Source of the DNA: an uncultured bacterium
Lineage (GTDB): Bacteria; Verrucomicrobiota; Kiritimatiellia; RFP12; UBA1067
Reading direction: 5' to 3'
Length of the DNA stretch: 64,000 nt
Assembly: GCA_902779565.1 (NCBI GenBank)
Contig: CACZCD010000001.1
Location: forward strand, 3,929 to 67,928
This document shows positions 4,590 to 45,440 of the stretch, piece by piece. A program made the translations under genes and the position numbers. Under the pieces are notes generated by a model. The model saw only the letters and a list, made by a program, of their open reading frames with translations, was not told where the DNA came from and searched no databases. Every line of letters starts with the position of its first letter. Within the stretch, counting starts at the first letter, position 1.

Positions 4590-4624
4590 AGTCTCCTTGA
4601 CGGTCAGTTGGTAGTTGATAGTTG

Positions 4625-4782
4625 GTGGTTGATTTGTCTCACGCAGAGGCGCAGAGGACGCAGAGAGAAATTTCGGAGTTGTGACTCCGCTCAAAAAATA
4701 ACATGGATTCCACCTTTCCACTTTTCCACCTTTCCACCATTCCACCTTTCCACTTTTCCACCTTTCAACCTTTCAACTTTTG
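4625..4782. repeat. Tandem-repeat hairpin element copy 1: CA-rich arm (4625-4655) and purine arm (4708-4782) around a spacer carrying GCAGAGG x3 and a small hairpin
   Basis: Plus-strand arms: gttggtagttgatagttggtggttg ... ccacctttccacttttccacctttccaccattccacctttccacttttccacctttcaacctttcaac. The arms are imperfectly complementary (GTTGAWAG units pair with CTTTCMAC units). Confidence 0.8.
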
Positions 4783-6045
4783 GATGAGGAACACCTTGTC
4801 GCCCACGCGGCAGCGCGGGGCCGGGAACGTCACCCACGTCCCCTTCTCGGCCACCTCCGGTACTTCCTCGTCGCGCCGGAGCGAAGCGATGCGAAACTCC
4901 TGTACGCCCGTTGTGGGACCTTGGATCTGGACGAGATCACCCACTTTTACGGCGGCATCCTGAATCTTCACCTGCGCAATCTCCGCCTTCAGGAAATAGT
5001 CGATCACGATGCCGACGTGGCGTTTCACCTCCTGCGCGGACGAATTGGGCGTATCAGTGAACTGGTCCACTCCCGGACGCCCAAAGTAGAGGCCGCGCGA
5101 ATATTCGCGATGGAAGAAACGCCGCGTCCGCGCGACCAGACGCTCCGCCTGCTCGGGCGTATACGTGCCGGCCAACACAGCATCCACCGCTTCGCGGTAA
5201 GCGCTCACCACTGTCATCACATATTCGGCGTTGCGGGCGCGTCCCTCGATCTTGAACGACGCGATGCCCGCCGCCATCAGCTGATCGATGAACGGCAGCG
5301 AACAGAGGTCCTTCGCCGAGAGCACGGTGTGGGGCGTCACAAAGAACTCCGTCTCCGAATCATGCACGGGCTGCCCCTCGCCATCCGAATAGAGATCAAC
5401 GGCCTTTAGAAGAAACGTGCGCCGGCAGGGCTGGCGACACTCGCCGCGGTTCGCGCTGCAGCCGTAGGCGTCGTGGCTCATCATGCAGCGTCCGCTCTCC
5501 GCCACGCATTGCGCGCCATGCACGAAGCACTCCACCTCCAGGCCGCCTGCCGCCACGATGCGCTTCACCTCGTCAAGCGTGCATTCGCGCGCCAGCACCA
5601 CGCGCGAAGCGCCCTGCTCCTTCACGAAGCGCACCGCCGCCGAATTCGAGATGCTCATCTGCGTGGAGACGTGAAACCGCACGCCGTGTTTTCGGCACAG
5701 CGCCACCACGCCCCAGTCCGCAACGATGAACGCATCCACATACGGCTTCGCCGCCATGATCATCCGCTCTACTTTCTCCGTCTCATCCTCAAACAGGATC
5801 GCGTTGAGCGTGAGATAACGCTTCACCCGCCGCGGTGCCGCTTCGCACCGCCGCTGGATCTCCGGCAGGTCTTCCACCGTGAAGTTCACGCCCGCGCGCT
5901 GGCGCATGTTGAATTCGTCCAAGCCGAAATAGACGGCGTCCGCCCCCGCATCAATTGCCGCCTGAAGGCAGGTCATGTCACCGGCCGGCGCCAAGATCTC
6001 AGGCGCCTTCAGGCCGCAACCAACATCGCGCACATCCTGCTGCAT
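4765..6045 (-). CDS. Peptidase U32 family protein (collagenase-like / YhbU-YegQ family)
   Basis: KAPEILAPAGD N-terminal motif, Cys-rich central segment and U32 C-terminal domain. The start is taken at MQQDVRD (6045). The C-terminal codons ...KLKG and the stop are supplied by the repeat element (aaagttgaaaggttga). Confidence 0.8.
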   Translation of the reverse strand: MQQDVRDVGCGLKAPEILAPAGDMTCLQAAIDAGADAVYFGLDEFNMRQRAGVNFTVEDLPEIQRRCEAAPRRVKRYLTLNAILFEDETEKVERMIMAAKPYVDAFIVADWGVVALCRKHGVRFHVSTQMSISNSAAVRFVKEQGASRVVLARECTLDEVKRIVAAGGLEVECFVHGAQCVAESGRCMMSHDAYGCSANRGECRQPCRRTFLLKAVDLYSDGEGQPVHDSETEFFVTPHTVLSAKDLCSLPFIDQLMAAGIASFKIEGRARNAEYVMTVVSAYREAVDAVLAGTYTPEQAERLVARTRRFFHREYSRGLYFGRPGVDQFTDTPNSSAQEVKRHVGIVIDYFLKAEIAQVKIQDAAVKVGDLVQIQGPTTGVQEFRIASLRRDEEVPEVAEKGTWVTFPAPRCRVGDKVFLIQKLKG

Positions 6046-7436: not shown

Positions 7437-7660
7437 GGCGCTTGTGCTTGTGTTTGTTGCCAGTCCGTGGCCGCGTCCGTTGTAGCCCGTTGCCTGTCCG
7501 TTAGGCGTCCGTATTAGCCCGTGTGAAGTCCGTAATCTGCCTGAAGCCTGTCCATGATATGTCCGTGGGTAGTCCGTGGTGTGTCCGTCTATGGGAGGGC
7601 GAGTGTCCTCGTGAAACGCCTCAAGTCCGTAATGCGTCCTTCTCGTATCCGTGTGAAGAA
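7437..7660 (+). repeat. Array R1: about 17 copies of GTCCGT (variants GCCCGT, GTCCTC, ATCCGT) phased at 10-12 bp (mean ~11 bp). It is an inverted copy of block B of R2.
   Basis: ccagtccgtgg ccgcgtccgtt gtagcccgttg cctgtccgtta ggcgtccgtat ... The first ~60 bp (ggcgcttgtgcttgtgtttgttgccagtccgtggccgcgtccgtt) is the near-exact reverse complement of 23225-23285. Confidence 0.85.
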
Positions 7661-22735: not shown

Positions 22736-22936
22736 TCAGCCAGCGAAACCACACAATCCCCAACCACCCTCAACCGTCGCCCCGCACCCCGCGACCACTG
22801 CGTGGCTCGGCCTTCGACCTCGAATGATATCCCTGCGCAATCCCCCGCAGTTCCTCCAATCCACCACTCCTCCAATCACCCAATCCTCACACCCCACCCA
22901 CTCCACACCCGCAGAGCCAGCCTTGAACACCCTAAA

Positions 22937-23004: not shown

Positions 23005-23290
23005 GAAGACATCCAACGGGCTTCTGACGGACACACCACGGACAGGTTACGGTCTTGCCAAGGACATCTGACGGACGGCACACGGACACACTACGGACAA
23101 GTTACGGACTGGCCACGGACGCGCAACAGACTTCATACGGGCTTAGAACGGACGAGCCACGGACAAAATACGGGCGGAACACGGACTAAAACGGACTTCT
23201 GATGGACAGCATACGGACGGATCACGGGCTACAAACGGACGCGGCCACGGACTGGCAACAAACACAAGCACAAGCGCCTTTCCCGCGGCG
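23005..23290 (+). repeat. Array R2 block B: about 22 copies of ACGGAC (variants ACGGGC, ATGGAC) phased at ~11 bp. The terminal ~60 bp is the inverted duplicate of the R1 start.
   Basis: ctgacggacac accacggacag gttacggtctt ... ctacggacaag ttacggactgg ccacggacgcg ... aaacggacgcggccacggactggcaacaaacacaagcacaagcgcc. Confidence 0.85.
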
Positions 23291-25346: not shown

Positions 25347-25360
25347 GTTAATCCTTTTTT

Positions 25361-25430
25361 AGTTGATAGTTGATAATTGATGATTGGTGGTCTAGTCTCA
25401 ACCTTTCCACTTTTCCACCTTCCCACTTTT
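25361..25430. repeat. Tandem-repeat hairpin element copy 2, in the 5'UTR of the esterase gene
   Basis: Plus strand: agttgatagttgataattgatgattggtgg ... ctcaacctttccacttttccaccttcccactttt. The arrangement is the same as copy 1, with the CA-rich arm ending 8 nt before the AAAAAAGGA RBS on the mRNA. Confidence 0.8.
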
Positions 25431-25434
25431 AACT

Positions 25435-26571
25435 TCAGATAACACCTTTGATGTACCGTTCCTTCACCGTGCGCCAAAGCACCAGGCAGAACGCCGAAAG
25501 CGGGATGGCGAGCAGGAGCCCCAGGAGCGACTTGAACACCGCGCTCCAGAACAGGAACGAGAAGATCACGCCCGCAAAGCCAAGTCCTGTGCGCTGGCCC
25601 TGGATGAGCGGCGTGATGGCATAGCCGTCCGCGATCTGGCCGGCCGCCCATACGCTCGACACACCGATGAGCCGCAACAGACTGCCACCATCGCCGAAGA
25701 AGGCGAGCAGGAGCGCAAGCGGAAGGCAGATTACAGTACCGAGGAGCGGCACAAGGTTGATCGCTCCCAGCGCAAAGCCGATCACGAAGCCGTAGGGCAG
25801 CCCCACGAGAACGAATCCGAGGCCGTAGAGCACGCCTTCCACAAGGCAGATGATCACCTGCCGCTGGAAAAAGGAGACGATGATGTCCGTGAACGTATCG
25901 ATCTGATCCGCCACAAACCCGCGCGTCTCCTCCTTCAGGAACGGCATCTGCCGCACACAGTCCTCGCCGCGCAGCGCCGGCTTCATCAGGAAGTACACGA
26001 AGAAGATCATCGTCACAACCCACCCGACAAGACCCATGAGGTACTTCACCACACTGAAGCTCACCTTCACCGCCTTTCCGCCGTACTGCGCGCCGAGCTG
26101 GGAGAGGATATCGTGCGAGAACTGCGCGGGATCCGTGAAGAACAGAAGCGCGGAGTCCGGCACGCCGAGCTTCACAAGCCCCGCATGAAGCCCCGGATGC
26201 TGGGCCTGGAACCATTCGCTCGCGCGCGTCACAATCGTTGGCGCAGCGGTGATGAAGGCCGAGAGCTGCTCGATCAGCATCGCGCCCGTGAGCCACAGCA
26301 CGAGACCCGCCGGCACAAGGACCGTGAGGGACATCGCCACCAGCGCCAGGGTCGGGTTGTGCAACCGCTTCAGGAACCATCCGTAGTACGGCTTGAAGAA
26401 CATCGAAAGGAGCAATCCCATGATGACCGGTGTCAGCGCGGGCGCCGTCAGGTTCAGGAGCTTCAACACAAACCAGCCAATACCGAGCGCAAAGGCGACC
26501 ACCAGCGCCACCGCCAGAGACGTGACGCCCGCCGCCGCCCATTTCTTCTGCCGATTGCTCAAGTCAATCAC
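25435..26571 (-). CDS. AI-2E family transporter (PerM/UPF0118)
   Basis: 378 aa, about 8 TM segments, with the typical AI-2E topology and conserved segments. Confidence 0.7.
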   Translation of the reverse strand: MIDLSNRQKKWAAAGVTSLAVALVVAFALGIGWFVLKLLNLTAPALTPVIMGLLLSMFFKPYYGWFLKRLHNPTLALVAMSLTVLVPAGLVLWLTGAMLIEQLSAFITAAPTIVTRASEWFQAQHPGLHAGLVKLGVPDSALLFFTDPAQFSHDILSQLGAQYGGKAVKVSFSVVKYLMGLVGWVVTMIFFVYFLMKPALRGEDCVRQMPFLKEETRGFVADQIDTFTDIIVSFFQRQVIICLVEGVLYGLGFVLVGLPYGFVIGFALGAINLVPLLGTVICLPLALLLAFFGDGGSLLRLIGVSSVWAAGQIADGYAITPLIQGQRTGLGFAGVIFSFLFWSAVFKSLLGLLLAIPLSAFCLVLWRTVKERYIKGVI

Positions 26572-33297: not shown

Positions 33298-33660
33298 CTA
33301 CCAGGAGCGGTAATAGACCGGCGGAGGCGGCGGGGGCGGCGGCGCCACCACAACCGGGGCCGGGGAATAGACCGGGGTGCTATAGACCGGCGTGCTATAG
33401 ACCGGTGTGCTATAAACCGGCGTGCTATAGACTGGCGCAGGCGCCACGACAACTGGCGGACGAACGATGCTGTTCACGATCGCCGCAGTGCCGAGAGCGG
33501 CTCCCGCAATGCCCCATCCGCAATGGTGGTGATGATGATGGTAGCCATGGCCACCATGGAACCTAGGACCGCCATGGAACCCACCATGGAACCCCGGACG
33601 GGCGAACATCACACCTGCCGTTGCCACGACTGCCAGCATTACTATCAGTTTCTTGTTCAT
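33298..33660 (-). CDS. Small secreted His-rich / Pro-rich repeat protein
   Basis: Signal peptide, then FHGGFHGGPRFHGGHGYHHHHHHC, a hydrophobic segment, 5x STPVY tandem repeats, and PPPPPPPP. Confidence 0.5.
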   Translation of the reverse strand: MNKKLIVMLAVVATAGVMFARPGFHGGFHGGPRFHGGHGYHHHHHHCGWGIAGAALGTAAIVNSIVRPPVVVAPAPVYSTPVYSTPVYSTPVYSTPVYSPAPVVVAPPPPPPPPVYYRSW

Positions 33661-33792: not shown

Positions 33793-36700
33793 TTAGGGCT
33801 TTACGCGCACGGTTTCAGCGGTTGAGTGTGCCGTGAACTCGGGCGCGTACATGCATTGGATCGTCGCAAGCCCGCCGATAAACACGCCGCGCTGCTGCAC
33901 GCGATACGACGTCTCAAGAACGAACACGCCCTTGTTGAGACAGTCGATGTAGTAGTGCGTGGCCGTATCCTTCGTGGACTGATAATAACCCACGCCATCG
34001 CGCCAGCGGTACGACGACAGCACATCCTCCGGCTCCGCGCACGCAGGCCGCTCGTCAGAGAGATGCACGAACTCGTACGTGCGGTCGCTCGTGATCTCAA
34101 GCCGCGCCACGATCTCGTCGCCCGGCTCAAGCACGCCATCGATCGACGTGAGCCGTGTCCCATCCGCGCCCTTCACCTTCTTGTAGTACTTCTTCTCCAC
34201 CCGCAACTCCTTCGGCTCGTGCGCGCGTACCTTAAGGACATCCTCAAAGTACGTCCAGTGGACGCCGCCCCACGCAACGCCCTTCTCGCCCGCACCCGTA
34301 AACGTGATCTCGCCCATCTCGGGCCTGATCTGCGCCGCGGCGTAGCGGTGCGAATACATCCCCGTGCCCGCCTCGGCGTTCGCCACCGGCACCTTCTCGC
34401 CCGCCAGCGTGACCTCGGCCAGCTTGTCGCCCGCCAGCAGATCCGTCCCGCCGCCCAGAAGGAGCGCATAGATCGCGTCCACCGTCGCGGCGGTCGTCGT
34501 CCAATCCTGCGTCTGCTTCTGCTTCAGGAGCCACACGTTGCAGGCATCTGCGCTCTCCTCGTCGCGCGTCACCTCGCGGAACGCCTCAATGATCAGCGCC
34601 TGCGTCGAGACGGGCGCGGCGAACACGCTGCACGAGAAGAAGGACGACCTCTTCCAGTATAGGCCGAGTTCCTCTGAAAGGACGCCCCGCTCCTTGATCG
34701 ACGCCATGATCTTCCGCGCGAACTTTTCCTCGCCCATGCGCTTCAAGGCGATGGCCGCCAGCGCCTGCGAGCTGAGGCCGAAGTCCGTCCACTCCTCCTT
34801 GAGATGCTTGACGAAGAGCTTTGCCGGCTGCGCATCCTTCGCGGCGGCGACGCCCTTGAACGTATGGAGGTAGAGCCAGCGAATGTCGAAGCCATCCACA
34901 TGGAACTTGATGCCCAGTCTCTTCGCCTCCTTGAGCCGCTCCTTCACATCCTCAGAAACGAACGCGTCAAGTGCTTCCACCGCCTCCGCAAAGAAGTCGG
35001 GATACGTCCTCTGCGCCAGGAAGTTGAGCCGCGCGAACCCCGTCAGGATATAGAGCGAGATGCCGGGCGCGGACGGCCCGCCCGGGAACCACGGCCAGAG
35101 TCCGCCGCCACACCGCGCGAGTCGCAACTTCTCAAGGCACTTTTCCTGCTCACCCGCCAGACGGTCGGCGGCGAAGAGTTCACCAAGCCGCGCGCGGGCT
35201 GCGCTTTCGTGCGCCGCCTCACGGACCCACGGCGTCGCTTCAAGCGCAATCGCCTTGAGGTGTTCATCCGTCTCAAGCGGGCTCTTCAGCGTTTCGCCGC
35301 CCGCCGCCTTCCACGCGTCGAACGTGGCGCGGATGCGCGGATCGGCGTTTGCGATGTACTGTCCCAGCGCGTTCGCATAGTAGCGGCTGAACGTCTGCTC
35401 GCAGCATTCGTGCGGGAACTCCATCAGGTACGGAAGCGACAACACCGCGTACCACGCCGGACGCGACACGGCGCGCACCGTGAGATCCTGATGGCGGACC
35501 GTCTCAGACCCCTTGCTCGCCAGCAGGTTCTCGAACCGAAACGATTTCGTCGCCGCGCCACGCACGTTGAGCTGCACGGCCTCGCGCACCATCACGCGGC
35601 GCGCCAGCACCGGCAGCACGCCCTCTTCGCCGTCCGCGAACGCCGCGCCCTTCGCGCGCGCGACATATTTGAGATAGCCGCACCCATCCGGGATCCGCAA
35701 CGGGAACTCGAACGTCTTCGATTCGTGCGGAACCAGGTTGAAAGGTTGAAAGGTTGAAGCGTTGAAAGGTTGAAGCGTTGACGGGTTGGCATTTTCAGCA
35801 GAACTTTTCAACTCTTCAACCTTCAACTCTACAACTCCCTGCTGCGGCGCGTCCTCGGTGTTCGTCACCTTGACGGCAAAGAAGAAGTTGTCACCTTCGC
35901 GCACGAAACGCGGTGCGTTCGGTTCGCACATGAGCGGCTTCGTCGTCACGATCTCGTTGTTGCGGAAGATGTCGCCGCGAAGCGCGTTGTCATGCGCGAC
36001 CATCAGGAACTTCCAGCCCGTGAGCGCGTCCGGCACCGTGAACGAGAACGACACCTTCCCGTCCGCATCCGTCTCCAGGTTCGGGAAGAAGAACGCCGTC
36101 TCCTTCAGGTTCGTGCGCGGCGGCGCATCCGGTTCCTTCTCGGACTTCGCGGATGGTGCAGCACCACACACCGCCACCGTTTCTTCTTCCAAGACGCACC
36201 TTTCATTCATCACGCCCATCCCGGCCGCGGCGGACTTGCAGACCATGCCGCCCCGTCTTCGCAGTCTGCCATACTCGTACAGCGACCGCCACGAAGGCCA
36301 TCGGAAGTTGGAGAACCACGTGGACTTGCTTGGGAACCGACCGCCGAGATCCATCAGCTCCGTGGTCGTATTCTGGATTGCCGGACTTCCGAGCCAGCGC
36401 GTCCAGGGCGTAAAGTGACTTGAAAAACCGAGCGACACATCATGCCATTTGTACGCATCGAGCGAACGGTCGTACATGAAAGCGAGCACTTCCGCAGGGC
36501 CCGACACCTTGAACGTCCATATTTCCTTGTTGCCGGGATTGAGCTTGCTCGTCAGGTGCTCCGCCGTGATATCCAGATACTTGTTGTCCCACGGCACATT
36601 CACGCAGGTGCTGTCGCAATAGATGCGGTTCTCGCGCACGAAGGTGGTCTCAATCCTCACTTCGCCGCGATGCTCCTCCTGGATCGGCAGCTCGAAAAAC

Positions 36701-39663
36701 CAAGATGGGCTCTCCCCGCCGATCGTCTTTTCAAGAAGCGTCTTCCGGTTGTTCGTCACCTTCACGCGGCACCAGCCCGTCGCATAGCCCGAGCCCCAAT
36801 AGGCGCGGAGCGTCTCGCCGACCTTCACCATCCCCCTCTCCGAGCAGAAGTAGGTCGGCACGGCAATTCCAAGGCCTTTCGCGGACGGATCGAACACGAA
36901 GACTTCTGCGTAGTCCTTCACCGTCTTGCCGTTCGGATCCTTCGCTTCGAACATGAGACGATAGGCACCGACACCGAGCTTGATCTCGCCCGTCCACTTC
37001 TCCGGCTTGTCCGTGGAGATATCGAGCGACAGCACCTCTTCGCCCATCTTCCACGTCTTCCAGTCCCAAGGACCTTTCACGTTCCGGTCAGAGCCGTAGC
37101 GGCCCTCACCCGCCGGCTTGCGAACCGGCCTTTCGGGTGCGACGAGCCGATAGGCCTTCAGCGTGCCCTTGACCGGCAGCGGCGCACCTGCAAGCGAGTT
37201 GATCGTCACACGCGGCGCAACAGGCACGTCAGGCGTCTGCCATTTTTCGCCGGTCCACACGCTTGCGCGCCAGGCCACGGTTCCGATCTCGAACGACGAC
37301 TCCGCCGTGTGCTCCTCGCCCGTTTCGTCCGTCACCTCCGCCGTCACCGAAAACTCGAACGACGGATCGCCCGACAGGTCGGCTTTAGGAGAAGCGACGG
37401 GTGTGAACGTCACCTCGAAGACGCCGTTGCCGTCCGTCTTCGCCTCTCCCTTCCCGACAAAGTTTTCACCGTCATCGTCTGACGTGCCACCGAACCATCG
37501 CCACCAGCTGGGATAGCGCGTGGCGCGCTCCACCGACCATTTGACCTTCGCGTTCTGCACGGGAAGCCCCGAGTAGGTGAGCGCCTTGCCCGTCACCGTC
37601 ACCGGCACGCCCAGCGTCCCCTGCTCCGGCGCCGCCTCGAACGAGACGGTGAACTTCGGCCGCTTGTACTCCTCCACGTTCACGCGCTTCTGCGATTCGC
37701 CTGTCTTGCCATCCTTCAGGACGACGCGCGCCATCACCGTGTATTCACCGGTAAGCCGATCCGTCGGCGCCGTGAAAGTGTAGGTGAACGATCCCCACTT
37801 GTTCGTGCGGAGGCGTTTCGCGGCGACTTCCTTATCGTTCGGATCGCTGAATGTCACGAGTACCAGTTCATCCGGCAGCGTGTGGAAATCCTGCGTATGC
37901 GGATTCGCGTGGTAGGCGATGCCCTTCACCCGGATCTCCTGACCCGGACGGTAGATCGCACGGTCGGTGAAGAGATCCATGTATTCGTACTTCGGCGCTT
38001 CGTACGATTCGCTGCCCGATCCCTCGCTGCCGAGGGAAAGCACTTCGTCATTCTCCTTGATGACGCGAACGTTCCGCATCAGCGCGTTATAGTCGTCCTT
38101 CTTCGCCACGTCGGCGACAAAACGTCCATCCTTGTCCGTCACATACGTCTCGCGCAGCACCAGAACGCGTCCGCCTTGGGGCGGGTACCCCCAAAGCTCC
38201 ACCTTCGCGTCCGCGACCGTCTCACCGGACTCCGCACGATAGACCGTGCCGCCGAACGCGCCGTTGCCCGTCTCAAGGGCGAGCGCCAGCGATGTGACGG
38301 TGACATACTGCGCGAACAGCGGCTGCTTGTCCGAACCGAAGGCCTCGTTCCCGGCCGCGTAGAGGACATAGTGTCCAACCTTCAGATCCGACGGCGCCGT
38401 GAACTTGAACGTCTGCTCGGTGTAGTCCGGCTTCAGCGGAAGCACTTCCTTCCACTCCTTGACCGGGCGGCGCGACAGGTACTTGTTCTTCATCTCATCG
38501 CGAGCGCCCCCCCGTCCGGCCGAGCCCATCGAGGTGTCATTGACGAGGTCCTGGAACGAAACCGGCACAAGGCGGAAGTGGACTTCCGTGAGGTTCTTCG
38601 CGCGAACCTCAATCTCCGGCCAGGGTGCACACCAGTTGCGTTCAATCTTGCACGCCAGCTTCTTCCCCTCGATGGCGGCGACAATGTTGGCGCATTTCTT
38701 CCCCCCCGGCGAATCGGACCACTTCGCCTCGTATTCAGCGGCAAGATCATGCGCCGCGAGAAGATTGGTTTTACAGAGCTGCTCCGCCTTCAGTGCCGCC
38801 GCGTAGGCGACGGCTTCGGTTTTCCCCTCGTACCGCTTGATGAAATTATCCAGAAACGCCCCGAACACGGCTTCGCGCGCCTTCTCTGGCTGGTTGTCGA
38901 ACGAACGGATGTACTCGGCGGCGTCCAGCTCAGCCATCGCGAGCGCATCGGCGTTTCCGTCTCCTTGATGAAAATCAATCAGCCGTCGATAGAGCGCGAG
39001 ACCCTTTTCAAGCGTCTTGTCCGGAATCGTCTCGCCGTAAAAGCTGATGGCATCCCGCACGGCGAAATCGTAGAGTGTCGGCACATACGTTTTCGGATAG
39101 TCGCCACGATGGAAAATCTCCGTCCAGTCCGCGAGCATCATCCCCTTCAGCTCTTCGGCATAAGCGAACACCTTCGCGAACTGCATCTCGAGCGTGTCGG
39201 CGATCTTCTCGGGCGACCATGGCGGCATCTTGTCGGCGGCGGCGGCCTCGTCCAGCTTCGTCGGCGCGGCGCCGCCCCAGCGCCACCGGCGCGAGTTCTC
39301 CTGGTAGGTGTGGGCGAGGTGGAGCTGGAGGACGGCCTGAAGCGGCGCGGGCTGCGCATCAACCGACGCGGCAAAGGCCGGCAGCCAATTCTGCGGCAGT
39401 TCGTCTCGAAACTCCTTCATCGCCTGCTCGCGGACAAGAAAGGCCCGTGCGGCATCAGGCCAACGCGCGGCGGCGACGGCCTCGCGCGCAATCTCCTCCA
39501 CCTTGTTTGTGACGGTGCGCGGCAGTCCGTTTTCCTGCGCCTCCTCGACGGCCTTCCAGGCCTTGGCGAAATTGTACGCTCCCATGACAGCTCCCTTCAG
39601 GGTGACGGAGGCGGCAAGAATCGCCAGCGCCCATACGGTTCTTTTTCGGCTTATTAGACTCAT
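33793..39663 (-). CDS. Bacterial alpha-2-macroglobulin family protein (1956 aa)
   Basis: Signal peptide (MSLISRKRTVWALAILAAS), multiple MG-like domains, a thioester-region motif ...MEFPHECCEQTFS (CxEQ), and an A2M receptor-binding-like C-terminus. It contains an in-frame repeat-element insertion. Confidence 0.8.
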   Translation of the reverse strand: MSLISRKRTVWALAILAASVTLKGAVMGAYNFAKAWKAVEEAQENGLPRTVTNKVEEIAREAVAAARWPDAARAFLVREQAMKEFRDELPQNWLPAFAASVDAQPAPLQAVLQLHLAHTYQENSRRWRWGGAAPTKLDEAAAADKMPPWSPEKIADTLEMQFAKVFAYAEELKGMMLADWTEIFHRGDYPKTYVPTLYDFAVRDAISFYGETIPDKTLEKGLALYRRLIDFHQGDGNADALAMAELDAAEYIRSFDNQPEKAREAVFGAFLDNFIKRYEGKTEAVAYAAALKAEQLCKTNLLAAHDLAAEYEAKWSDSPGGKKCANIVAAIEGKKLACKIERNWCAPWPEIEVRAKNLTEVHFRLVPVSFQDLVNDTSMGSAGRGGARDEMKNKYLSRRPVKEWKEVLPLKPDYTEQTFKFTAPSDLKVGHYVLYAAGNEAFGSDKQPLFAQYVTVTSLALALETGNGAFGGTVYRAESGETVADAKVELWGYPPQGGRVLVLRETYVTDKDGRFVADVAKKDDYNALMRNVRVIKENDEVLSLGSEGSGSESYEAPKYEYMDLFTDRAIYRPGQEIRVKGIAYHANPHTQDFHTLPDELVLVTFSDPNDKEVAAKRLRTNKWGSFTYTFTAPTDRLTGEYTVMARVVLKDGKTGESQKRVNVEEYKRPKFTVSFEAAPEQGTLGVPVTVTGKALTYSGLPVQNAKVKWSVERATRYPSWWRWFGGTSDDDGENFVGKGEAKTDGNGVFEVTFTPVASPKADLSGDPSFEFSVTAEVTDETGEEHTAESSFEIGTVAWRASVWTGEKWQTPDVPVAPRVTINSLAGAPLPVKGTLKAYRLVAPERPVRKPAGEGRYGSDRNVKGPWDWKTWKMGEEVLSLDISTDKPEKWTGEIKLGVGAYRLMFEAKDPNGKTVKDYAEVFVFDPSAKGLGIAVPTYFCSERGMVKVGETLRAYWGSGYATGWCRVKVTNNRKTLLEKTIGGESPSWFFELPIQEEHRGEVRIETTFVRENRIYCDSTCVNVPWDNKYLDITAEHLTSKLNPGNKEIWTFKVSGPAEVLAFMYDRSLDAYKWHDVSLGFSSHFTPWTRWLGSPAIQNTTTELMDLGGRFPSKSTWFSNFRWPSWRSLYEYGRLRRRGGMVCKSAAAGMGVMNERCVLEEETVAVCGAAPSAKSEKEPDAPPRTNLKETAFFFPNLETDADGKVSFSFTVPDALTGWKFLMVAHDNALRGDIFRNNEIVTTKPLMCEPNAPRFVREGDNFFFAVKVTNTEDAPQQGVVELKVEELKSSAENANPSTLQPFNASTFQPFNLVPHESKTFEFPLRIPDGCGYLKYVARAKGAAFADGEEGVLPVLARRVMVREAVQLNVRGAATKSFRFENLLASKGSETVRHQDLTVRAVSRPAWYAVLSLPYLMEFPHECCEQTFSRYYANALGQYIANADPRIRATFDAWKAAGGETLKSPLETDEHLKAIALEATPWVREAAHESAARARLGELFAADRLAGEQEKCLEKLRLARCGGGLWPWFPGGPSAPGISLYILTGFARLNFLAQRTYPDFFAEAVEALDAFVSEDVKERLKEAKRLGIKFHVDGFDIRWLYLHTFKGVAAAKDAQPAKLFVKHLKEEWTDFGLSSQALAAIALKRMGEEKFARKIMASIKERGVLSEELGLYWKRSSFFSCSVFAAPVSTQALIIEAFREVTRDEESADACNVWLLKQKQTQDWTTTAATVDAIYALLLGGGTDLLAGDKLAEVTLAGEKVPVANAEAGTGMYSHRYAAAQIRPEMGEITFTGAGEKGVAWGGVHWTYFEDVLKVRAHEPKELRVEKKYYKKVKGADGTRLTSIDGVLEPGDEIVARLEITSDRTYEFVHLSDERPACAEPEDVLSSYRWRDGVGYYQSTKDTATHYYIDCLNKGVFVLETSYRVQQRGVFIGGLATIQCMYAPEFTAHSTAETVRVKP
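35736..35838. repeat. Tandem-repeat hairpin element copy 3, in-frame inside the A2M coding sequence
   Basis: Plus strand: ggttgaaaggttgaaaggttgaagcgttgaaaggttgaagcgttgacgggttgg - spacer - cttttcaactcttcaaccttcaactctacaactcc. It encodes ...ENANPSTLQPFNASTFQPFNL... Confidence 0.8.
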
Positions 39664-39759: not shown

Positions 39760-41526
39760 CTATCTCTTCTTCATTGGAGACAACCGCTCAATGACGAGAC
39801 GCCCGGGTTTCATGCGGCTCTTCACGCCACGCTCGAAGTAGATGTGGTAGGAATCCGACTCGCCACGCTTGTCGGGCCTGCCGTTAACATGCTCCATCAC
39901 ATAGCGCATGCTGCCGGACTTCCCGGGCGGCGTGGAGTAGCGCGTTGAGCCGAAGCCCGGTCCCTTCGCGTTGCTGAGGCGAATGTTCCACCGGGTCGAA
40001 CCCTCCGGCTGGTCGCTCTCCAGATCGAACGTAACGCGGAACTCCGTGCCCGCCTTACCCGCGAACAGCCCTTCCGGCAGACGTATCACCCAGTCGCTGC
40101 TGCCGAACGGACCGTACCATCCGTCCTTGCCCGCTTTCGCGCGCCGCTTCCCTTCCGCCGCAAGCCTGCGCGGATAGATGCCAAACTCGGCGGCGGGATC
40201 GGCGGACTCCAGCACCACCGTCCCCCGCGTCCACTCCGGAACGGTCACCTCGTTCGAGAGGATCTTCCCCTTGCCGAACACACGGAACGGGTTCATGGGC
40301 GTAACCACGAACCTCACCGTATCCCCGACCGTCAGGAACGGCGCCTCGAAGAGCGTCTCCAGAACGGGCTGGCGCTCCTTCGGCGGCAGCCACCAGTCGC
40401 CCAGCATTTCGCGCCACGTGAACTGCTCCCACGCGCCATTCGCGCCCTTGCGCTCCGCCGCGATCACGTACTTGAACGCGGAAGGTCCGGCGGACGGGAT
40501 TGTAAGCGAAAAGCCCTGGAACGGCGAACCTTTCGCCTCCGCCTTCACCGTGGCACCCGCCTCAAACTCCGGGACGGGGCACTCCGCCTTCGCAACCTCG
40601 CGCCGCCACGGGGCGGTTTCGGCGACGAACGGGAGCGGCACGATCCACGGCTTGCCGGGCAGGATCTCGCTACCGTCTCGCACGTCCCAGCGGCGAACGT
40701 CGAGCCGGTCGGCGAAGACGTCCACGGTGATCACGCCGTACGACTGCCGGCGCGGTTCGGGATGGCCGATCGTGAACGAACCCCAGTTCTGGAGGCAACC
40801 GGAGCTGATCGCCGTGAACTTCCCCTGGCGGATGTGCAGGTCGTTGCGGACGGTACCGTGCGCGTGACCGCAGAAGTACACCACCTGCGGGAACTTGGAG
40901 AGGATCTCGGTGCGCCTCGGGTCGGGAACGCCCCACACGCCGCCGGCGGGGATGTGGTCCGTCACGAACACCGGCTTGCCCGGGTTGGCGGCGCAGGCGT
41001 CGGCGATGCGCTTTTCATACTCATCCCAGCCGATGAACCCTTTGCTTCCCACAAACTGCGGGAACACCACGAAGGTGTAGCCCTTGTGGACGACGGTATC
41101 GGTGTGGGAGTTGGGTGCCTTCAGGAGCACCCGCGTCTCCTCAAATGCCTCCGGCGCGTCCCGCACGGCCATCTCGCGCGCGTGACCTTTATAAGCAAAG
41201 GCGTCGTGCCAGGCATAGACGTAGATCTCGCCGGGCTTCTGCTCCGCGCCGGCGAACACCTCGTCGAACACCTGCCGGTAGGCCTGGTAGCCGGTTGGGT
41301 AGTGCCAGTCGGCGATGTCGCCCGTGTTGATCACGAGCTCGCATCCCTTCGAGCGGAAGAGCTGGAGCGCGAGCTTCACGCGTCCGCAGCTCTCGACCGT
41401 CTTGCCGACGTGCGTATCGGTCATCACGCCAAACCGGAACAGCGGCTTCTCATCCGCCGCCCAAAGCCGAACCCCAAGCGGCGCCAGCATCGCACCGCCG
41501 AGAAATGTGCGTCTCGTTGTTCTCAT
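39760..41526 (-). CDS. Tat-exported calcineurin-like metallophosphoesterase, large
   Basis: MRTTRRTFLGGAMLAPLG (Tat motif), GVMTDTHVG, NTGDIAD, GHAHG-type dimetal motifs, and a long C-terminal beta-rich extension. Confidence 0.65.
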   Translation of the reverse strand: MRTTRRTFLGGAMLAPLGVRLWAADEKPLFRFGVMTDTHVGKTVESCGRVKLALQLFRSKGCELVINTGDIADWHYPTGYQAYRQVFDEVFAGAEQKPGEIYVYAWHDAFAYKGHAREMAVRDAPEAFEETRVLLKAPNSHTDTVVHKGYTFVVFPQFVGSKGFIGWDEYEKRIADACAANPGKPVFVTDHIPAGGVWGVPDPRRTEILSKFPQVVYFCGHAHGTVRNDLHIRQGKFTAISSGCLQNWGSFTIGHPEPRRQSYGVITVDVFADRLDVRRWDVRDGSEILPGKPWIVPLPFVAETAPWRREVAKAECPVPEFEAGATVKAEAKGSPFQGFSLTIPSAGPSAFKYVIAAERKGANGAWEQFTWREMLGDWWLPPKERQPVLETLFEAPFLTVGDTVRFVVTPMNPFRVFGKGKILSNEVTVPEWTRGTVVLESADPAAEFGIYPRRLAAEGKRRAKAGKDGWYGPFGSSDWVIRLPEGLFAGKAGTEFRVTFDLESDQPEGSTRWNIRLSNAKGPGFGSTRYSTPPGKSGSMRYVMEHVNGRPDKRGESDSYHIYFERGVKSRMKPGRLVIERLSPMKKR

Positions 41527-41593
41527 TGTGTACGCATTCCTTTCTTTTGTTGTGGTCGCGATTTTACCACATCCGCCCCGCCCGTTCAACAGG

Positions 41594-43523: not shown

Positions 43524-45440
43524 TCACAACGCGTCTGTCATGAATGTATGCGCCACCGTCCAAGGCGCGCTCTTGATCCGTTTCATGCGCATCAAAAGCG
43601 AAAGGCGGTGGCGTTCAAGCTCCGCATCGCCCCGTGCCGGCAGTTCGCCGAGACGGCGTCGGATCGCATCGCCCCATAGCCGCCGCAGAAAATCCTCAAG
43701 AATGCGCGCTGGGTCCAACTCGGAAAGCGATGCGCGCTCCCGCGACAGGAACACGCCCTCCAAAAGCGCACCATCCGCCGCGGAAAGCGTCCCGCGGAGT
43801 TCCGCCATCGCCTGCTCGTTCCCGCGCGTCTCCTGCACATAGGCGTGAACGAACCCGCACGTCAACGCATGCTGGAAAATCGTGTCGGGCGCATAGGATT
43901 CCAGCATCTCCGTCAGCTGCCCATCCGGTCCGTTTCCGAACAGAAACTCCATGAGTGCCATCTCTGTCCGAGGCGGCGGATTGTTCTCCGGAGCCGCAGC
44001 GTCTTCCGAGGGTTGAGAGTTGGGAGTTGAGGGTTGAGGGCTTGCCGCGCCGAAGCCTTCGGCGGAGGCGGGTTGCGTACTTCCTCTTCCCTCTTCCCTC
44101 TTCCCTCTTCCCTCTTCCCTCTTCCCTTTCTCTAGATCCTCCTCAAGGGCGGCGACCGGTATCTTCAGAAGTGTGGAAGCCTCCTGCAGCAAACTGGCGC
44201 GCATGACCGCGCTCGAACTGCACCTGACCAACGCCAAGACAGCGCGCGCCGCGCGGGAGATCGCATCGTAGGAGTCAGGTGTCTGCTCCATCGCGCGGGC
44301 GATGCGTACTTGAAAGGCGACCAGCGACTCAGCCGAATCAAGGCAGGCCTGAAACGCCGCCGGACCTTTCGTGCGAAGCAGAGAATCTGGGTCTTCGCCC
44401 GGCGGAAGACTTGCCACGCGCACCAACAATCCGGCGGCCAGCATCTCGCCGCCCGTGCGAATCGCCGCCTTCTGTCCAGCGGCATCGGCGTCAAAGACCA
44501 GCACGGCGGCATCGGCGACCTTCTTCAGGATCTGGACATGCTCCTTCGTGAAGGCCGTCCCCTGCGACGCGATCGCACGGGAGAATCCCGCCGCATGGCA
44601 GCGGATCACATCGATCTGCCCTTCGCAGACGATGGCCTCGCGAACGGGCTTGGCGTTGGCGATCTTCCCCGCCGCAAGATCGAACGCATAGAGAACATCC
44701 GACTTCCGGAAGATGAGCGTCTCGGGCGAATTGACGTACTTGCCGCCGCGCATCTTCGTCTTATCCGTCTCAAGCGTCCGTCCCGAGAACGCGATCACGC
44801 GTCCAGACCGGTCACGGATCGAGAACATGACGCGTCCGGCGAACGGCGAGTACCAGCGTCCGCCCGGATACTTCGGCGGACGCAGCACGCCGGCCGCCTC
44901 AAGCTCTTCGGTGGTGAAATGATGCTTCTCCGCCCATTTGAGCATCGCCTCGGCCTGCTGCGGCGCGTAGCCGATCTGGAACTGCTCCGCGATCTCGTCC
45001 GGGATGTCGCGCGACGCGAGATAGTTGCGCGCACGCGCCGCCTCAGCGGCCGTCTTGAGGCAACGCCGGTAGAACGCCGCCAACTCGGCGTGGAGCACAA
45101 GTTGGCGCTTGCGCGCGGCCGCTTGCGGATCGCTATTCGTCTCCTCGATGGTGATGTTCGCCGCCGCCGCCAGCTTCTTCGCCGCCTCCACGAAGCCCAG
45201 CCCCTCGTACTTCATCACGAACTTGATCACGTCGCCGGACTCGCCGCAACCGAAGCAGTGGTAGAATCCCTTCGCCGGCTGGATGTTGAAACTCGGCGTC
45301 TTTTCATGATGAAACGGGCAGCAGGCCTTGTACGACCCACCTGCCCGTTTCACTTGGATCCCGTAGCTGGCGATCAAATCTGCAAGGTCCGTACGGGCCT
45401 TGATCTCTTCGATCGTCTGCTCCGAAATGCCGAAGGCCAT
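43524..45440 (-). CDS. dnaG: DNA primase
   Basis: Zinc-ribbon CPFHHEKTPSFNIQPAKGFYHCFGCGESGD, TOPRIM region (EGQIDVIRCHAAG...DADAAGQKA). 638 aa including a low-complexity insertion derived from a repeat element. Confidence 0.9.
   Translation of the reverse strand: MAFGISEQTIEEIKARTDLADLIASYGIQVKRAGGSYKACCPFHHEKTPSFNIQPAKGFYHCFGCGESGDVIKFVMKYEGLGFVEAAKKLAAAANITIEETNSDPQAAARKRQLVLHAELAAFYRRCLKTAAEAARARNYLASRDIPDEIAEQFQIGYAPQQAEAMLKWAEKHHFTTEELEAAGVLRPPKYPGGRWYSPFAGRVMFSIRDRSGRVIAFSGRTLETDKTKMRGGKYVNSPETLIFRKSDVLYAFDLAAGKIANAKPVREAIVCEGQIDVIRCHAAGFSRAIASQGTAFTKEHVQILKKVADAAVLVFDADAAGQKAAIRTGGEMLAAGLLVRVASLPPGEDPDSLLRTKGPAAFQACLDSAESLVAFQVRIARAMEQTPDSYDAISRAARAVLALVRCSSSAVMRASLLQEASTLLKIPVAALEEDLEKGKREEGRGKREEGRGSTQPASAEGFGAASPQPSTPNSQPSEDAAAPENNPPPRTEMALMEFLFGNGPDGQLTEMLESYAPDTIFQHALTCGFVHAYVQETRGNEQAMAELRGTLSAADGALLEGVFLSRERASLSELDPARILEDFLRRLWGDAIRRRLGELPARGDAELERHRLSLLMRMKRIKSAPWTVAHTFMTDAL
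44010..44125. repeat. Tandem-repeat hairpin element copy 4, in-frame inside dnaG
   Basis: Plus strand: gggttgagagttgggagttgagggttgaggg - spacer with gccgaagccttcggc hairpin - (cctcttc)x5. It encodes ...KGKREEGRGKREEGRGSTQPASAEGFGAASPQPSTPNSQPS... Confidence 0.8.

What the first reader, a model, noticed from the sequence alone, without database searches (positions are those of the whole stretch)
35736..35838. In-frame hairpin-element insertion inside the alpha-2-macroglobulin gene
The 1956-aa A2M ORF reads straight through a ~100-bp element, (GTTGAAAG)6 - spacer - (CTYTTCAAC)4 on the plus strand. This adds about 35 aa (...SAENANPSTLQPFNASTFQPFNLVPH...) with no stop and no frameshift. The units are 8 nt, so the specific copy numbers present are exactly those that keep the frame. 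That pattern is consistent with either selection for an intact protein or with slipped-strand phase variation. The latter is a candidate ON/OFF switch for a surface or periplasmic defence protein.
Basis: partly seen in the sequence, partly recalled or inferred. Interest (0 to 1): 0.7.

Follow-up and report, generated by a model that had tools for sequence, protein, structure and literature searches.

The report
Hairpin repeat array overwriting an A2M loop
A ~105-bp hairpin-forming array of 8-base repeats really is read in frame inside a rumen bacterium's alpha-2-macroglobulin gene. It has overwritten a surface loop rather than simply being inserted, it is one of many such arrays in this bacterial clade (also in DnaG and CTP synthase), and there is no evidence that it switches the gene on and off in this species.

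Summary
Window 35734-35838 lies in frame (codons G1276-L1310) in a 1956-aa thioester-type A2M gene (33793-39663, minus strand) of a rumen Kiritimatiellae bacterium. Six to seven 8-nt units face four complementary units, GC3 is 0.44 against 0.80 gene-wide, and the RNA fold z-score is -3.1.

It is not a clean 35-aa insertion:
- One arm encodes the conserved beta-strand VVELKVEEL, recoded in rare codons.
- The loop between conserved anchors is 22 aa. It is a near-fixed 18 aa in 73 homologues from other phyla, and 5-49 aa in this clade.
- Orthologues carry different tandem-unit/hairpin families at the same site (TTCAACC, CTCCTCCA, CCAATCC, CGTCTC and others). 15 of 25 fold far better than shuffles.
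- Similar arrays occur in the DnaG linker of this window, in CTP synthase, in other A2M loops and between genes.

Best explanation: arrays made and kept complementary by replication slippage plus template switching, tolerated in a disordered loop tip, with selection keeping the frame.

Phase variation:
- Against: the array is identical in 4-5 conspecific assemblies and the repeats are imperfect.
- For: related lineages with (CTCCTCCA)n have n=4 in frame, and n=3 or n=5 splitting the gene.
- Caveat: an essential dnaG is also frameshifted at its array.

The parts
33793..39663 (-). Thioester-type bacterial alpha-2-macroglobulin gene, 1956 aa from the ATG at 39663. The ORF listed from an upstream TTG runs to 39699.
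   Evidence: Translation. Pfam MG2 564-656, A2M 1189-1280, bMG10 1820-1942. 100% identical to P0001 from rumen metagenome assemblies; related hits are named Kiritimatiellae.
35734..35838 (-). The whole element: codons G1276-L1310, a compositionally distinct, hairpin-forming segment read in frame.
   Evidence: GC3 0.44 against 0.80 gene-wide. GC dip to 48%. RNA MFE z = -3.1; DNA z = -2.2.
35737..35792 (-). Regular 8-nt array. On the sense strand it reads (Y)TTCAACS x6-7 and encodes ...NPSTLQPFNASTFQPFN. This unit has no stop codon in any frame.
   Evidence: TRF and repeat finder. Tandem TTTCAACC has no stop in any frame, whereas its complement GGTTGAAA gives TGA in every frame.
35802..35838 (-). 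Complementary arm, 5' on the sense strand (GGAGTTGTAGAGTTGAAGGTTGAAGAGTTGAAAAGTT). Unit spacing is irregular (7/8 nt). It encodes GVVELKVEELKS, i.e. the conserved MG-domain beta-strand recoded in rare codons (GTT, GTA, TTG, AAA).
   Evidence: Alignment of 120 orthologues. Codon table. AlphaFold strand at fragment residues 43-54.
35743..35808 (-). Hypervariable loop K1286-P1307 (22 aa) between the conserved anchors EEL and FxLxPHESK. It is predicted to be a beta-hairpin extension with a disordered tip.
   Evidence: Loop length 18 aa in 51 of 73 distant homologues and 5-49 aa in the clade. pLDDT below 50 for SAENANPSTL.
35395..35406 (-). Thioester motif C1420-C-E-Q1423, downstream of the array. 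A slip of one unit would truncate the protein before it.
   Evidence: Invariant columns. Simulated +/-8-nt slips stop at aa 1352-1384.
44008..44127 (-). Second in-frame array of the same kind. On the plus strand it is (GAGGGTT)x4.7, a GC hairpin, then (CCTCTTC)x6.4. It lies in the linker of DnaG primase (gene 43524-45440) and encodes EKGKREEGRGKREEGRGSTQPASAEGFGAASPQPSTPNSQPSE.
   Evidence: The linker is array-coded and hypervariable in close relatives.
4606..4790 (.). Intergenic array pair: (AGTTGRT)x4, a spacer, then (TTCCACCT)x8 ending in TTCAACCTTTCAAC. It contains the exact 16-mer of the A2M array at 4762-4777.
   Evidence: As a whole it does not fold better than shuffles (z = +0.7).
25360..25435 (.). 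Intergenic array pair with the same architecture: (TAGTTGA)x3, a spacer, then (CTTTCCAC)x3.
22852..22888 (.). Intergenic TCCTCCAATC-type array. The same unit family fills the A2M loop of the closest relatives (L083, L084).

Best explanation
The segment is a hairpin-forming array of non-triplet (8-nt) repeats. It arose and is maintained at this site by replication slippage, which expands and contracts units, and by intrastrand template switching, which copies one arm onto the other.

It sits at the tip of a beta-hairpin on the surface of the MG domain that follows the bait region, upstream of the thioester motif. There it has overwritten an ancestral 18-residue segment and recoded the adjoining beta-strand.

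Selection acts only as a filter.
- The total length must stay a multiple of three.
- The regular array must use the orientation that has no stop codon in any frame (TTCAACC).
- The complementary arm must dodge TGA, hence its irregular 7/8-nt spacing, and must still spell a beta-strand.

The peptide it encodes is most likely a tolerated passenger. The same process operates throughout this rumen Kiritimatiellae clade, in disordered linkers and loops of many proteins and in intergenic DNA. Occasional +/-1-unit slips break the gene. Those are probably deleterious or neutral loss events rather than a regulated switch.

Shown: the anatomy, the site hypervariability, the recurrence of hairpins with unrelated sequences, clade-wide occurrence, the frame and stop constraints, and the stability within this species.

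Inferred: the slippage and template-switch mechanism, and the lack of function.
For: 1. Same loop, many unrelated unit families, most of them hairpins. The families include TTCAACC, CTCCTCCA, CCAATCC, CGTCTC/GAGACG, CTTCAAGAC/GTCCTGAAG and GC-rich stems. 15 of 25 distinct loop sequences fold with z <= -2.2 (down to -9.6). Array-free loops (L100, L106) give z of about 0.
2. The ancestral state is a fixed-length segment: 18 aa in 51 of 73 homologues from other phyla, against 5-49 aa in this clade.
3. The strand-coding arm co-varies with the array.
- VELKVEELK or VKLNVEELK accompanies TTCAAC arrays in 5 of 6 cases.
- VELRVCELGVGEF accompanies CTCCTCCA arrays.
- GEVSLALEEL accompanies array-free loops.
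- In the window that arm uses rare codons: GTT 10%, GTA 3%, TTG 5%, AAA 12%.
4. In two families the unit equals the adjacent native codons: Q-P-F = CAACCTTTC gives TTTCAACC, and Q-S-F = CAATCCTTT gives CCAATCCT. This points to local seeding.
5. Third-codon positions inside the element are more alike between lineages than gene-wide: Q against L114, 0.83 against 0.53. This is expected if one arm is pinned by the protein and the other is kept complementary to it.
6. The phenomenon is general.
- DnaG linker of this window.
- CTP synthase GATase domain, L091 524-626.
- Other A2M loops with AATCAAAC arrays.
- Intergenic arrays.
- 10.4 non-triplet arrays per 100 kb in Kiritimatiellae loci against 1.9 in loci from other phyla; the first set is biased by how it was collected.
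7. Stop-codon logic explains the asymmetry between the arms.
8. The loop tip has low confidence in the model (pLDDT < 50). The fold is an MG beta-sandwich that matches Salmonella and E. coli A2M.
9. Template switching that creates and repairs hairpin stems is an established replication error (PMC8794818, PMC7202029, PMC8604942).
Against: - Local seeding is visible for only two unit families.
- The same unit families recur at unrelated sites: the exact 16-mer at 4762-4777; AGCACCA in both CTP synthase and A2M of L091; CTTCAACCC upstream of a gene in L094. This hints at a shared source or a sequence preference that plain slippage does not explain.
- The TTCAACC-type element is scattered on the gene tree. 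The window's copy is 88% identical to that of L114 although the genes are 71% identical. This could instead mean lateral patch transfer or selection on the hairpin itself.
- Not all arrays are hairpins. The intergenic pair at 4595-4800 has z = +0.7 and the DnaG array z = -1.6.
- No read-level or experimental data were available.
Confidence: 0.55

Rival explanations
1. Contingency locus. The 8-nt array is a slipped-strand ON/OFF switch for A2M. Gain or loss of one unit truncates the protein before the thioester domain, and a further slip restores it.
For: - The unit is not a multiple of three and lies inside the ORF.
- A simulated +/-1-unit slip stops translation at aa 1352-1384, before CCEQ at 1420-1423.
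- In three lineages about 91% identical to one another, (CTCCTCCA)n has n=4 in frame (L113), n=3 (L110, MAG GCA_017406465.1) and n=5 (L111). The two out-of-frame genes are split exactly at the array, and the downstream 640/641-aa ORF is otherwise intact.
- Two of four frameshifted A2Ms fall in a tract of about 30-40 nt within a 6-kb gene.
Against: - In this species the array is identical in the window and in L081, L082, L086 and L087.
- The repeats are imperfect, with at most two identical consecutive 8-mers.
- The tract lies two-thirds of the way into a 1956-aa protein, which is a costly place for a switch.
- The same kind of array sits in essential cytosolic genes (dnaG, CTP synthase), where switching would be lethal.
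- One dnaG contig (L112) is also frameshifted inside its array. Such frameshifts may therefore be assembly or consensus errors, or dead variants.
- L111 has only about 4.6x coverage.
- Other A2M frameshifts lie away from arrays (P0102, P0114). This suggests the gene is simply dispensable and decays.
Confidence: 0.15
2. Mobile palindromic element. A MITE or RPE-like hairpin element, or several families of them, inserted repeatedly into this permissive loop. Insertions were kept only when in frame.
For: - About 105 bp, hairpin-forming, compositionally foreign, in frame and on the protein surface.
- Unit families are shared between unrelated sites and genomes.
- Element types are scattered on the gene tree. 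The window's copy is 88% identical to that of a 71%-identical gene, with sharp boundaries.
- A contig (L108) jumps from the A2M array into an unrelated gene, as happens at dispersed repeats.
- There is a precedent: Rickettsia palindromic elements insert in frame into many genes (PMC10969869).
Against: - No second copy of the spacer or of the full element exists in the 64-kb window or in 115 held loci. It occurs only at this A2M site.
- No terminal inverted repeat plus target-site duplication signature was seen in the sequences read.
- One arm is the conserved beta-strand itself, so there is no clean empty site.
- The loop replaced an 18-aa segment rather than adding to it.
- No transposase was seen. 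Only 10 of the window's ORFs were scanned, so this point is weak.
Confidence: 0.15
3. Functional intragenic hairpin. The stem is selected at the RNA (or DNA) level, for example as a translation pause between domains, an mRNA processing or stability site, or a replication or transcription signal. The peptide would be incidental.
For: - Hairpins recur at the same codon position with unrelated sequences in many lineages. This resembles covariation.
- Third positions in the element are more conserved than gene-wide.
- The protein-coding arm uses rare codons that improve pairing.
Against: - About 40% of orthologue loops have no significant hairpin, and some have no array at all (L100, L106, L001, L093). 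The hairpin is therefore dispensable.
- There is no Rfam match.
- There is no U-tract after the stem.
- Template switching can produce the same apparent covariation without selection (PMC8794818).
Confidence: 0.1

Closest known systems
Rickettsia palindromic elements (RPEs), ~100-150-bp palindromic repeats inserted in frame into protein-coding genes (PMC10969869; Ogata et al. 2000, cited from my own knowledge)
   Same: - About 100 bp and hairpin-forming.
- Read in frame inside unrelated genes, including housekeeping ones.
- The extra peptide lies on the protein surface and is compatible with the fold.
   Different: - RPEs are dispersed families of near-identical full-length copies, each encoding a conserved peptide.
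- Here only short 7-9-nt units recur. The arms are tandem arrays, and no second full-length copy was found.
- The element overlaps and recodes native sequence instead of being a clean insertion.
Intragenic simple-sequence contingency loci, such as the tetranucleotide or pentanucleotide tracts of Haemophilus and Neisseria surface genes (my own knowledge), and long SSRs of 5-11-nt units in prokaryotes as discussed in PMC4679880
   Same: - A non-triplet tandem unit inside an ORF.
- Unit-number differences of +/-1 that break the frame are seen between related lineages.
   Different: - Classical tracts are long and perfect, usually lie near the 5' end, and vary within strains.
- This tract is imperfect, lies at codon 1290 of 1956, and is paired with an inverted arm.
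- It is invariant in the 4-5 conspecific assemblies held.
Abundant heptamer direct repeats: TAACTGA arrays of marine Beggiatoaceae (PMC4679880) and cyanobacterial STRR heptamers (my own knowledge)
   Same: - Many loci per genome carrying 7-8-nt tandem arrays from a limited unit vocabulary.
- Contigs often break at them.
- Some overlap ORFs.
   Different: - Those arrays are overwhelmingly intergenic and are proposed to be regulatory.
- Here a large share lies inside ORFs and is read through all three frames.
- Many come as inverted pairs that form hairpins.
Template-switch (quasipalindrome) mutagenesis that creates and perfects hairpins (PMC8794818, PMC7202029) and alters proteins (PMC8604942)
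   Same: - It explains complementary arms arising and being kept complementary without selection.
- It explains multi-nucleotide recoding of the coding arm.
   Different: This is a mutational mechanism, not an element family. It has been described for single stems, not for tandem-array arms that repeatedly overwrite the same protein loop across a clade.
PARCELs, palindromic amphipathic repeat coding elements (PMC2996958)
   Same: Palindromic DNA repeats that are translated as part of proteins.
   Different: - PARCELs are long in-frame tandem coding repeats that build repeat proteins and spread horizontally.
- This is a short non-triplet array inside a globular domain loop.

Membership tests
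Phase-variable contingency locus (intragenic SSR) | Tandem repeat with a unit length that is not a multiple of three, inside the ORF | tested here: met
   8-nt units at exact 8-nt spacing, 35737-35792, in frame in the 1956-aa ORF.
Phase-variable contingency locus (intragenic SSR) | Long tract of perfect copies prone to slippage | tested here: not met
   At most two identical consecutive 8-mers, or two identical 16-mers. Units differ at their last 2 nt.
Phase-variable contingency locus (intragenic SSR) | Unit-number polymorphism among members of the same species | tested here: not met
   The array is identical in the window and in L081, L082, L086 and L087, which come from different records and samples. 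The sample is small.
Phase-variable contingency locus (intragenic SSR) | Out-of-frame (OFF) variants differing by whole units | tested here: inconclusive
   - Seen in related lineages: (CTCCTCCA)n with n=3, 4 and 5.
- Not seen in this species.
- An essential dnaG contig shows the same kind of frameshift, so artefact or dead variants cannot be excluded.
Phase-variable contingency locus (intragenic SSR) | Heterogeneity within one population, and reversibility | not testable with these tools
   This needs read-level data or culture work.
RPE / MITE-type in-frame palindromic mobile element | Short hairpin-forming element read in frame at the protein surface | tested here: met
RPE / MITE-type in-frame palindromic mobile element | Several near-full-length dispersed copies in the genome | tested here: not met
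   The spacer and full element were found only at this A2M site in the window and in 115 loci. Only the 8-nt unit array recurs. Only 64 kb of this genome could be searched.
RPE / MITE-type in-frame palindromic mobile element | Clean insertion relative to an empty site (terminal repeats, target duplication) | tested here: not met
   One arm is the conserved beta-strand. An 18-aa ancestral segment is replaced. No flanking direct repeat was reported at the element's ends.
Genome-wide non-triplet tandem arrays (long SSR / STRR-like) | Tandem units of 5-11 nt at many loci, with several unit families | tested here: met
   - Window: 4606-4790, 22852-22888, 25360-25435, 35734-35838, 44008-44127.
- 46 arrays in 358 kb of related loci.
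- 10.4 against 1.9 per 100 kb compared with other phyla; the first set is biased by how it was collected.
Genome-wide non-triplet tandem arrays (long SSR / STRR-like) | Predominantly intergenic location | tested here: not met
   About two-thirds of the arrays in the held loci lie inside long ORFs. These loci were collected around the A2M gene, so the proportion is biased.
Bacterial thioester alpha-2-macroglobulin | MG domains, A2M domain, bMG10 domain and a CxEQ thioester motif | tested here: met
   - Pfam MG2, A2M and bMG10.
- C1420-C-E-Q1423 nearly invariant.
- The profile matches human A2M, E. coli YfhM and Salmonella A2M.
- The fragment model matches 4u48 and 4rtd.

The most novel reading that the evidence does not exclude
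A clade of rumen Kiritimatiellae has a so far undescribed process or element class that writes hairpin-forming arrays of 7-9-nt repeats into loops and linkers of many proteins, essential ones included. The stem would be actively maintained at the nucleotide level: arms co-vary, the coding arm is recoded in rare codons, and third positions are more conserved than in the rest of the gene. The arrays would therefore either have a function as intragenic hairpins or reflect a dedicated mechanism with a preferred unit vocabulary. At dispensable genes such as A2M they would act as reversible frameshift switches.
Probability: 0.25. Interest if true: 0.7.

Novelty: new variant of a known kind. Interest (0 to 1): 0.5.

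Why it matters
If the picture holds, this is a natural example of non-triplet repeat DNA repeatedly overwriting the same structural loop of a large multidomain protein. The same happens in linkers of essential enzymes across a whole uncultured clade.

That bears on three things:
- how low-complexity loops originate in proteins;
- how far template switching, rather than selection, can mimic RNA-structure covariation inside genes;
- how metagenome assemblies and gene calls break at such arrays (split genes, chimeric contigs).

For A2M biology it marks one MG-domain loop as freely replaceable. For this particular genome it is not evidence of a regulated defence switch.

Tried and rejected
- **Genome-collection scan with the full-length alignment.** These were useless for close DNA comparison, but I reused them to show the loop's ancestral 18-aa length.
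- **phmmer of the 307-aa fragment against PDB sequences.** No hits. The profile of A1 was needed instead.
- **Rfam scan of the whole window.** Nothing found.
- **Dispersed copies of the element's spacer.** None found.
- **Homologous recombination tract.** I compared Q, L084 and L085 in sliding windows to see whether such a tract explains the shared element. The flanks follow the gene tree right up to the element, so no extended tract exists.
- **Hairpins in all arrays.** The intergenic pair at 4595-4800 does not fold better than shuffles, and the DnaG array does so only weakly. 'Hairpin' is therefore not a universal property of the arrays.
- **The 15.5-kb block flanked by GTCCGT/ACGGAC arrays as a possible mobile element.** No transposase was found, only metabolic and HU-like genes.
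- **Bait region.** Rejected because Pfam A2M (1189-1280) starts after the low-complexity bait-like stretch, and the loop lies in the following MG domain.
- **Assembly artefact.** Rejected for the window because independent assemblies agree.
Full report
**What is in the sequence**

Plus-strand bases 35737-35792 are seven units at exact 8-nt spacing: GTTGAAAG, GTTGAAAG, GTTGAAGC, GTTGAAAG, GTTGAAGC, GTTGACGG, GTTGGCAT. After a short spacer, 35802-35838 reads AACTTTTC, AACTCTTC, AACCTTC, AACTCTAC, AACTCC. This is the inverted complement with spacing 8, 8, 7, 8. The best arm pair is 22 nt at 91% complementarity.

The segment lies in the minus-strand ORF 33793-39663. That ORF is 1956 aa from its ATG, with Pfam MG2, A2M and bMG10 and a CCEQ thioester motif at 1420-1423. 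The segment is read without stop or frameshift as G1276-L1310, GVVELKVEELKSSAENANPSTLQPFNASTFQPFNL.

It is not a chance pattern:
- The 16-mer GTTGAAAGGTTGAAAG with up to 3 mismatches occurs 14 times in the window against 0.25 expected.
- The sense RNA folds at -40 kcal/mol against -29 +/- 3.5 for shuffles, z = -3.1.
- GC falls to 48%.
- GC3 is 0.44 against 0.80 for the gene.

The protein is 100% identical to P0001 from rumen metagenome assemblies. Named relatives are Kiritimatiellae.

**Insertion or not**

I aligned 120 homologues and extracted the DNA of about 30 orthologous sites.

The arm at 35809-35835 encodes VVELKVEEL. This aligns with a beta-strand present in every homologue, including those at 36% identity (VRLSFSDA). 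The other boundary is the conserved Q-[PS]-F-x-L-x-P-H-E-S-K.

The number of residues between these anchors is:
- 22 in the window;
- 18 in 51 of 73 homologues from other phyla, range 6-36;
- 5-49 (median 21) within the clade that is at least 60% identical.

The emptiest orthologue (L100) reads EIEERKMAQPFSL. So an ancestral, length-conserved segment has been replaced. The net change is +4 aa against the family norm and +17 aa against the emptiest site, not +35.

An AlphaFold model of the domain fragment has mean pLDDT 73.5. It puts QQGVVELKVEEL and NASTFQPFNL in two antiparallel strands and gives pLDDT below 50 to SAENANPSTL. The fold matches MG domains of Salmonella and E. coli A2M, C3, C5 and CVF. 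A profile search aligns the region to human A2M 701-807, the domain after the bait region.

**The site is a hotspot for hairpin arrays of unrelated sequence**

Sense-strand units found in the same loop of orthologues:

| Unit family (sense strand) | Loci |
|---|---|
| GTTGAA / TTCAACC | window, L085, L088 (ten units plus a GC stem), L099, L114, L115 |
| GAGTTGG / CTCCTCCA or CTCACCCA | L091, L098, L110, L111, L113 |
| CCAATCC | L083, L084 (the closest relatives, 90%) |
| GAGACGG / CGTCTCA | L094, L096, L097, L089, L001 |
| GTCCTGAAG / CTTCAAGAC | L104, L105 |
| GTTCAAA / ACTTTAA | L101 |
| GGGACAWC | L102 |
| GC-rich stems | L095, P0022 |

Fifteen of 25 distinct loop sequences fold with z <= -2.2, down to -9.6. 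Loops without arrays, or with a single arm, give z near 0.

The strand-coding arm changes with the array:
- VELKVEELK or VKLNVEELK accompanies TTCAAC arrays.
- VELRVCELGVGEF accompanies CTCCTCCA arrays.
- GEVSLALEEL accompanies array-free loops.

In the window that arm is spelled with rare codons: GTT 10%, GTA 3%, TTG 5%, AAA 12% of their families.

In two families the unit equals the adjacent native codons. Q-P-F = CAACCTTTC gives TTTCAACC, and Q-S-F = CAATCCTTT gives CCAATCCT.

Tandem TTTCAACC has no stop in any frame, whereas its complement GGTTGAAA yields TGA in every frame. This explains why one arm is a regular 8-nt array and the other is irregular, alternating 7 and 8 nt so that TGA is never in frame.

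**The phenomenon is clade-wide, not specific to A2M**

- In the same window the DnaG primase gene (43524-45440) reads through (GAGGGTT)n, a GC stem and (CCTCTTC)n at 44008-44127 in its inter-domain linker. Close DnaG relatives carry different array-coded linkers. More distant ones have ordinary sequence.
- A TRF scan of 29 related loci (358 kb) found 46 arrays of 6-10-nt units. About two-thirds lie inside long ORFs. They include other A2M loops (AATCAAAC arrays), the GATase domain of CTP synthase (L091 524-626, a GTGCTTA/AGCACCA hairpin) and, in the same locus, AGCACCA again in A2M.
- Intergenic arrays in the window (4606-4790, 22852-22888, 25360-25435) use the same vocabulary. They include the exact 16-mer at 4762-4777 and the CCAATCC unit that fills the A2M loop of the closest relatives.
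- The density of 7-, 8- and 10-nt arrays is 10.4 per 100 kb in the Kiritimatiellae loci against 1.9 in loci from other phyla. The first set was collected around an array, so this is biased.

**Phase variation**

Against it, in this species:
- The array is identical in the window and in L081, L082, L086 and L087.
- The repeats are imperfect.

For it, elsewhere:
- In three lineages about 91% identical to one another, the perfect array (CTCCTCCA)n has n=4 in frame (L113; L098 also has 4).
- It has n=3 in L110 (GCA_017406465.1) and n=5 in L111.
- The last two split the gene into 1356/1407-aa and 640/641-aa ORFs exactly at the array.

So the arrays do slip on evolutionary time scales and are the gene's frameshift hotspot.

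Three controls weaken the adaptive reading:
- An essential dnaG contig (L112) is frameshifted inside its own array.
- A2M genes are also frameshifted away from arrays (P0102, P0114).
- L111 has low coverage.

A slip of one unit in the window's array would stop translation at aa 1352-1384, before the thioester.

**Mobile element or local evolution**

For local evolution:
- The spacer TGCTGAAAATGCCAACCCGTCAAC occurs only at this A2M site in everything held.
- No clean empty site exists.

For a shared source or selection:
- The TTCAACC-type element is scattered on a neighbour-joining tree of the proteins.
- The window's element is closer to those of more distant genes than to that of its closest relative:

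| Compared with | Element identity (3rd positions) | Whole-gene identity (3rd positions) |
|---|---|---|
| L114 | 0.88 (0.83) | 0.71 (0.53) |
| L085 | 0.79 (0.74) | 0.78 (0.60) |
| L084, closest relative | 0.61 (0.35) | 0.90 (0.82) |

- The boundaries are sharp. The flanks follow the gene tree.

This fits three readings:
- an old element kept similar because one arm is pinned by the protein and the other is kept complementary to it;
- short patch transfer between lineages;
- selection on the stem.

I cannot separate them with the data available.

**Verdict**

The 'insertion' is better described as an overwrite of a surface loop and its adjoining strand by a hairpin-forming array of non-triplet repeats.

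The most likely mechanism is slippage plus template switching, filtered by reading-frame and fold constraints (PMC8794818, PMC7202029, PMC8604942). It operates throughout a rumen Kiritimatiellae clade.

The closest known things are Rickettsia palindromic elements in genes (PMC10969869), intragenic contingency repeats, and abundant heptamer arrays such as TAACTGA (PMC4679880). It fails a defining test for each of them, so I rate it a new variant of a known kind.

A literature search for tandem repeats in Kiritimatiellae found nothing relevant. A search for phase variation of bacterial A2M returned only one paper, which I did not read.

Noticed in passing
window 44008-44127 (DnaG gene 43524-45440, minus strand): The essential primase gene reads in frame through a 7-nt array pair with a central GC hairpin in its inter-domain linker. 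Close relatives carry different array-coded linkers, and one contig (L112) is frameshifted inside the array.
   Followed up: yes
window 7456-7590 and 23030-23260: Arrays of GTCCGT (left) and ACGGAC (right) recur about every 11 nt, in inverted orientation. They flank a 15.5-kb block encoding two HU-like DNA-binding proteins, a glycyl-radical enzyme with its activase, GH28, an FGE-sulfatase-type protein, Fic and an AraC regulator. No transposase was seen. They could be phased protein-binding sites, and they remain unexplained.
   Followed up: partly
window 4606-4790 and 25360-25435: Two intergenic array pairs share one architecture: (AGTTGRT)n, a spacer, then (TTCCACYT)n. Each lies just upstream of a minus-strand gene start. 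The first contains the exact 16-mer of the A2M array and an internal (ACGCAGAGG)x3 plus a small GC hairpin. As a whole it does not fold better than shuffles.
   Followed up: partly
window 22852-22888: An intergenic TCCTCCAATC-type array. The same unit family fills the A2M loop in the closest relatives (L083, L084) but not in this genome.
   Followed up: partly
window 33367-33437 (ORF 33298-33660, minus strand): A 15-nt repeat x4.7 (ATAGACCGGCGTGCT) lies inside the 120-aa ORF with no Pfam match directly downstream of A2M. This small gene is conserved next to A2M in L081, L082 and L084.
   Followed up: no
L108 163-420: The contig runs from the A2M loop array (11 units of CTCCTCCA/CTCACCCA) directly into an unrelated gene. 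This is either a misassembly through a dispersed array or a real rearrangement at the array.
   Followed up: partly
L089 4714-4809 and 5118-5189; L096 1320-1678; L098 5166-5196; L111 10677-10712; L091 6711-6786: Other loops of A2M orthologues also carry in-frame non-triplet arrays, such as AATCAAAC giving NQTIKQSNN... and AGCACCA giving TKHQAPS.... This accounts for the 1897-2076-aa length spread of the family.
   Followed up: partly
L091 524-626: CTP synthase (CTP_synth_N plus GATase) carries an in-frame hairpin array (GTGCTTA)n / (AGCACCA)n inside its GATase domain.
   Followed up: partly
P0102, P0114 (A2M homologues): Two further A2M genes are frameshifted at places that are not arrays, for example right after CCEQTFS. 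This suggests the gene is often decaying, or poorly assembled, in this clade.
   Followed up: no
window 33793-39663 and neighbours: This A2M has a roughly 550-aa N-terminal region without a Pfam match before MG2. The x position of its thioester motif CxEQ is also Cys (CCEQ). It is flanked upstream by a weak metallophosphatase-like protein (39760-41589) and a two-component system, not by a penicillin-binding protein.
   Followed up: no
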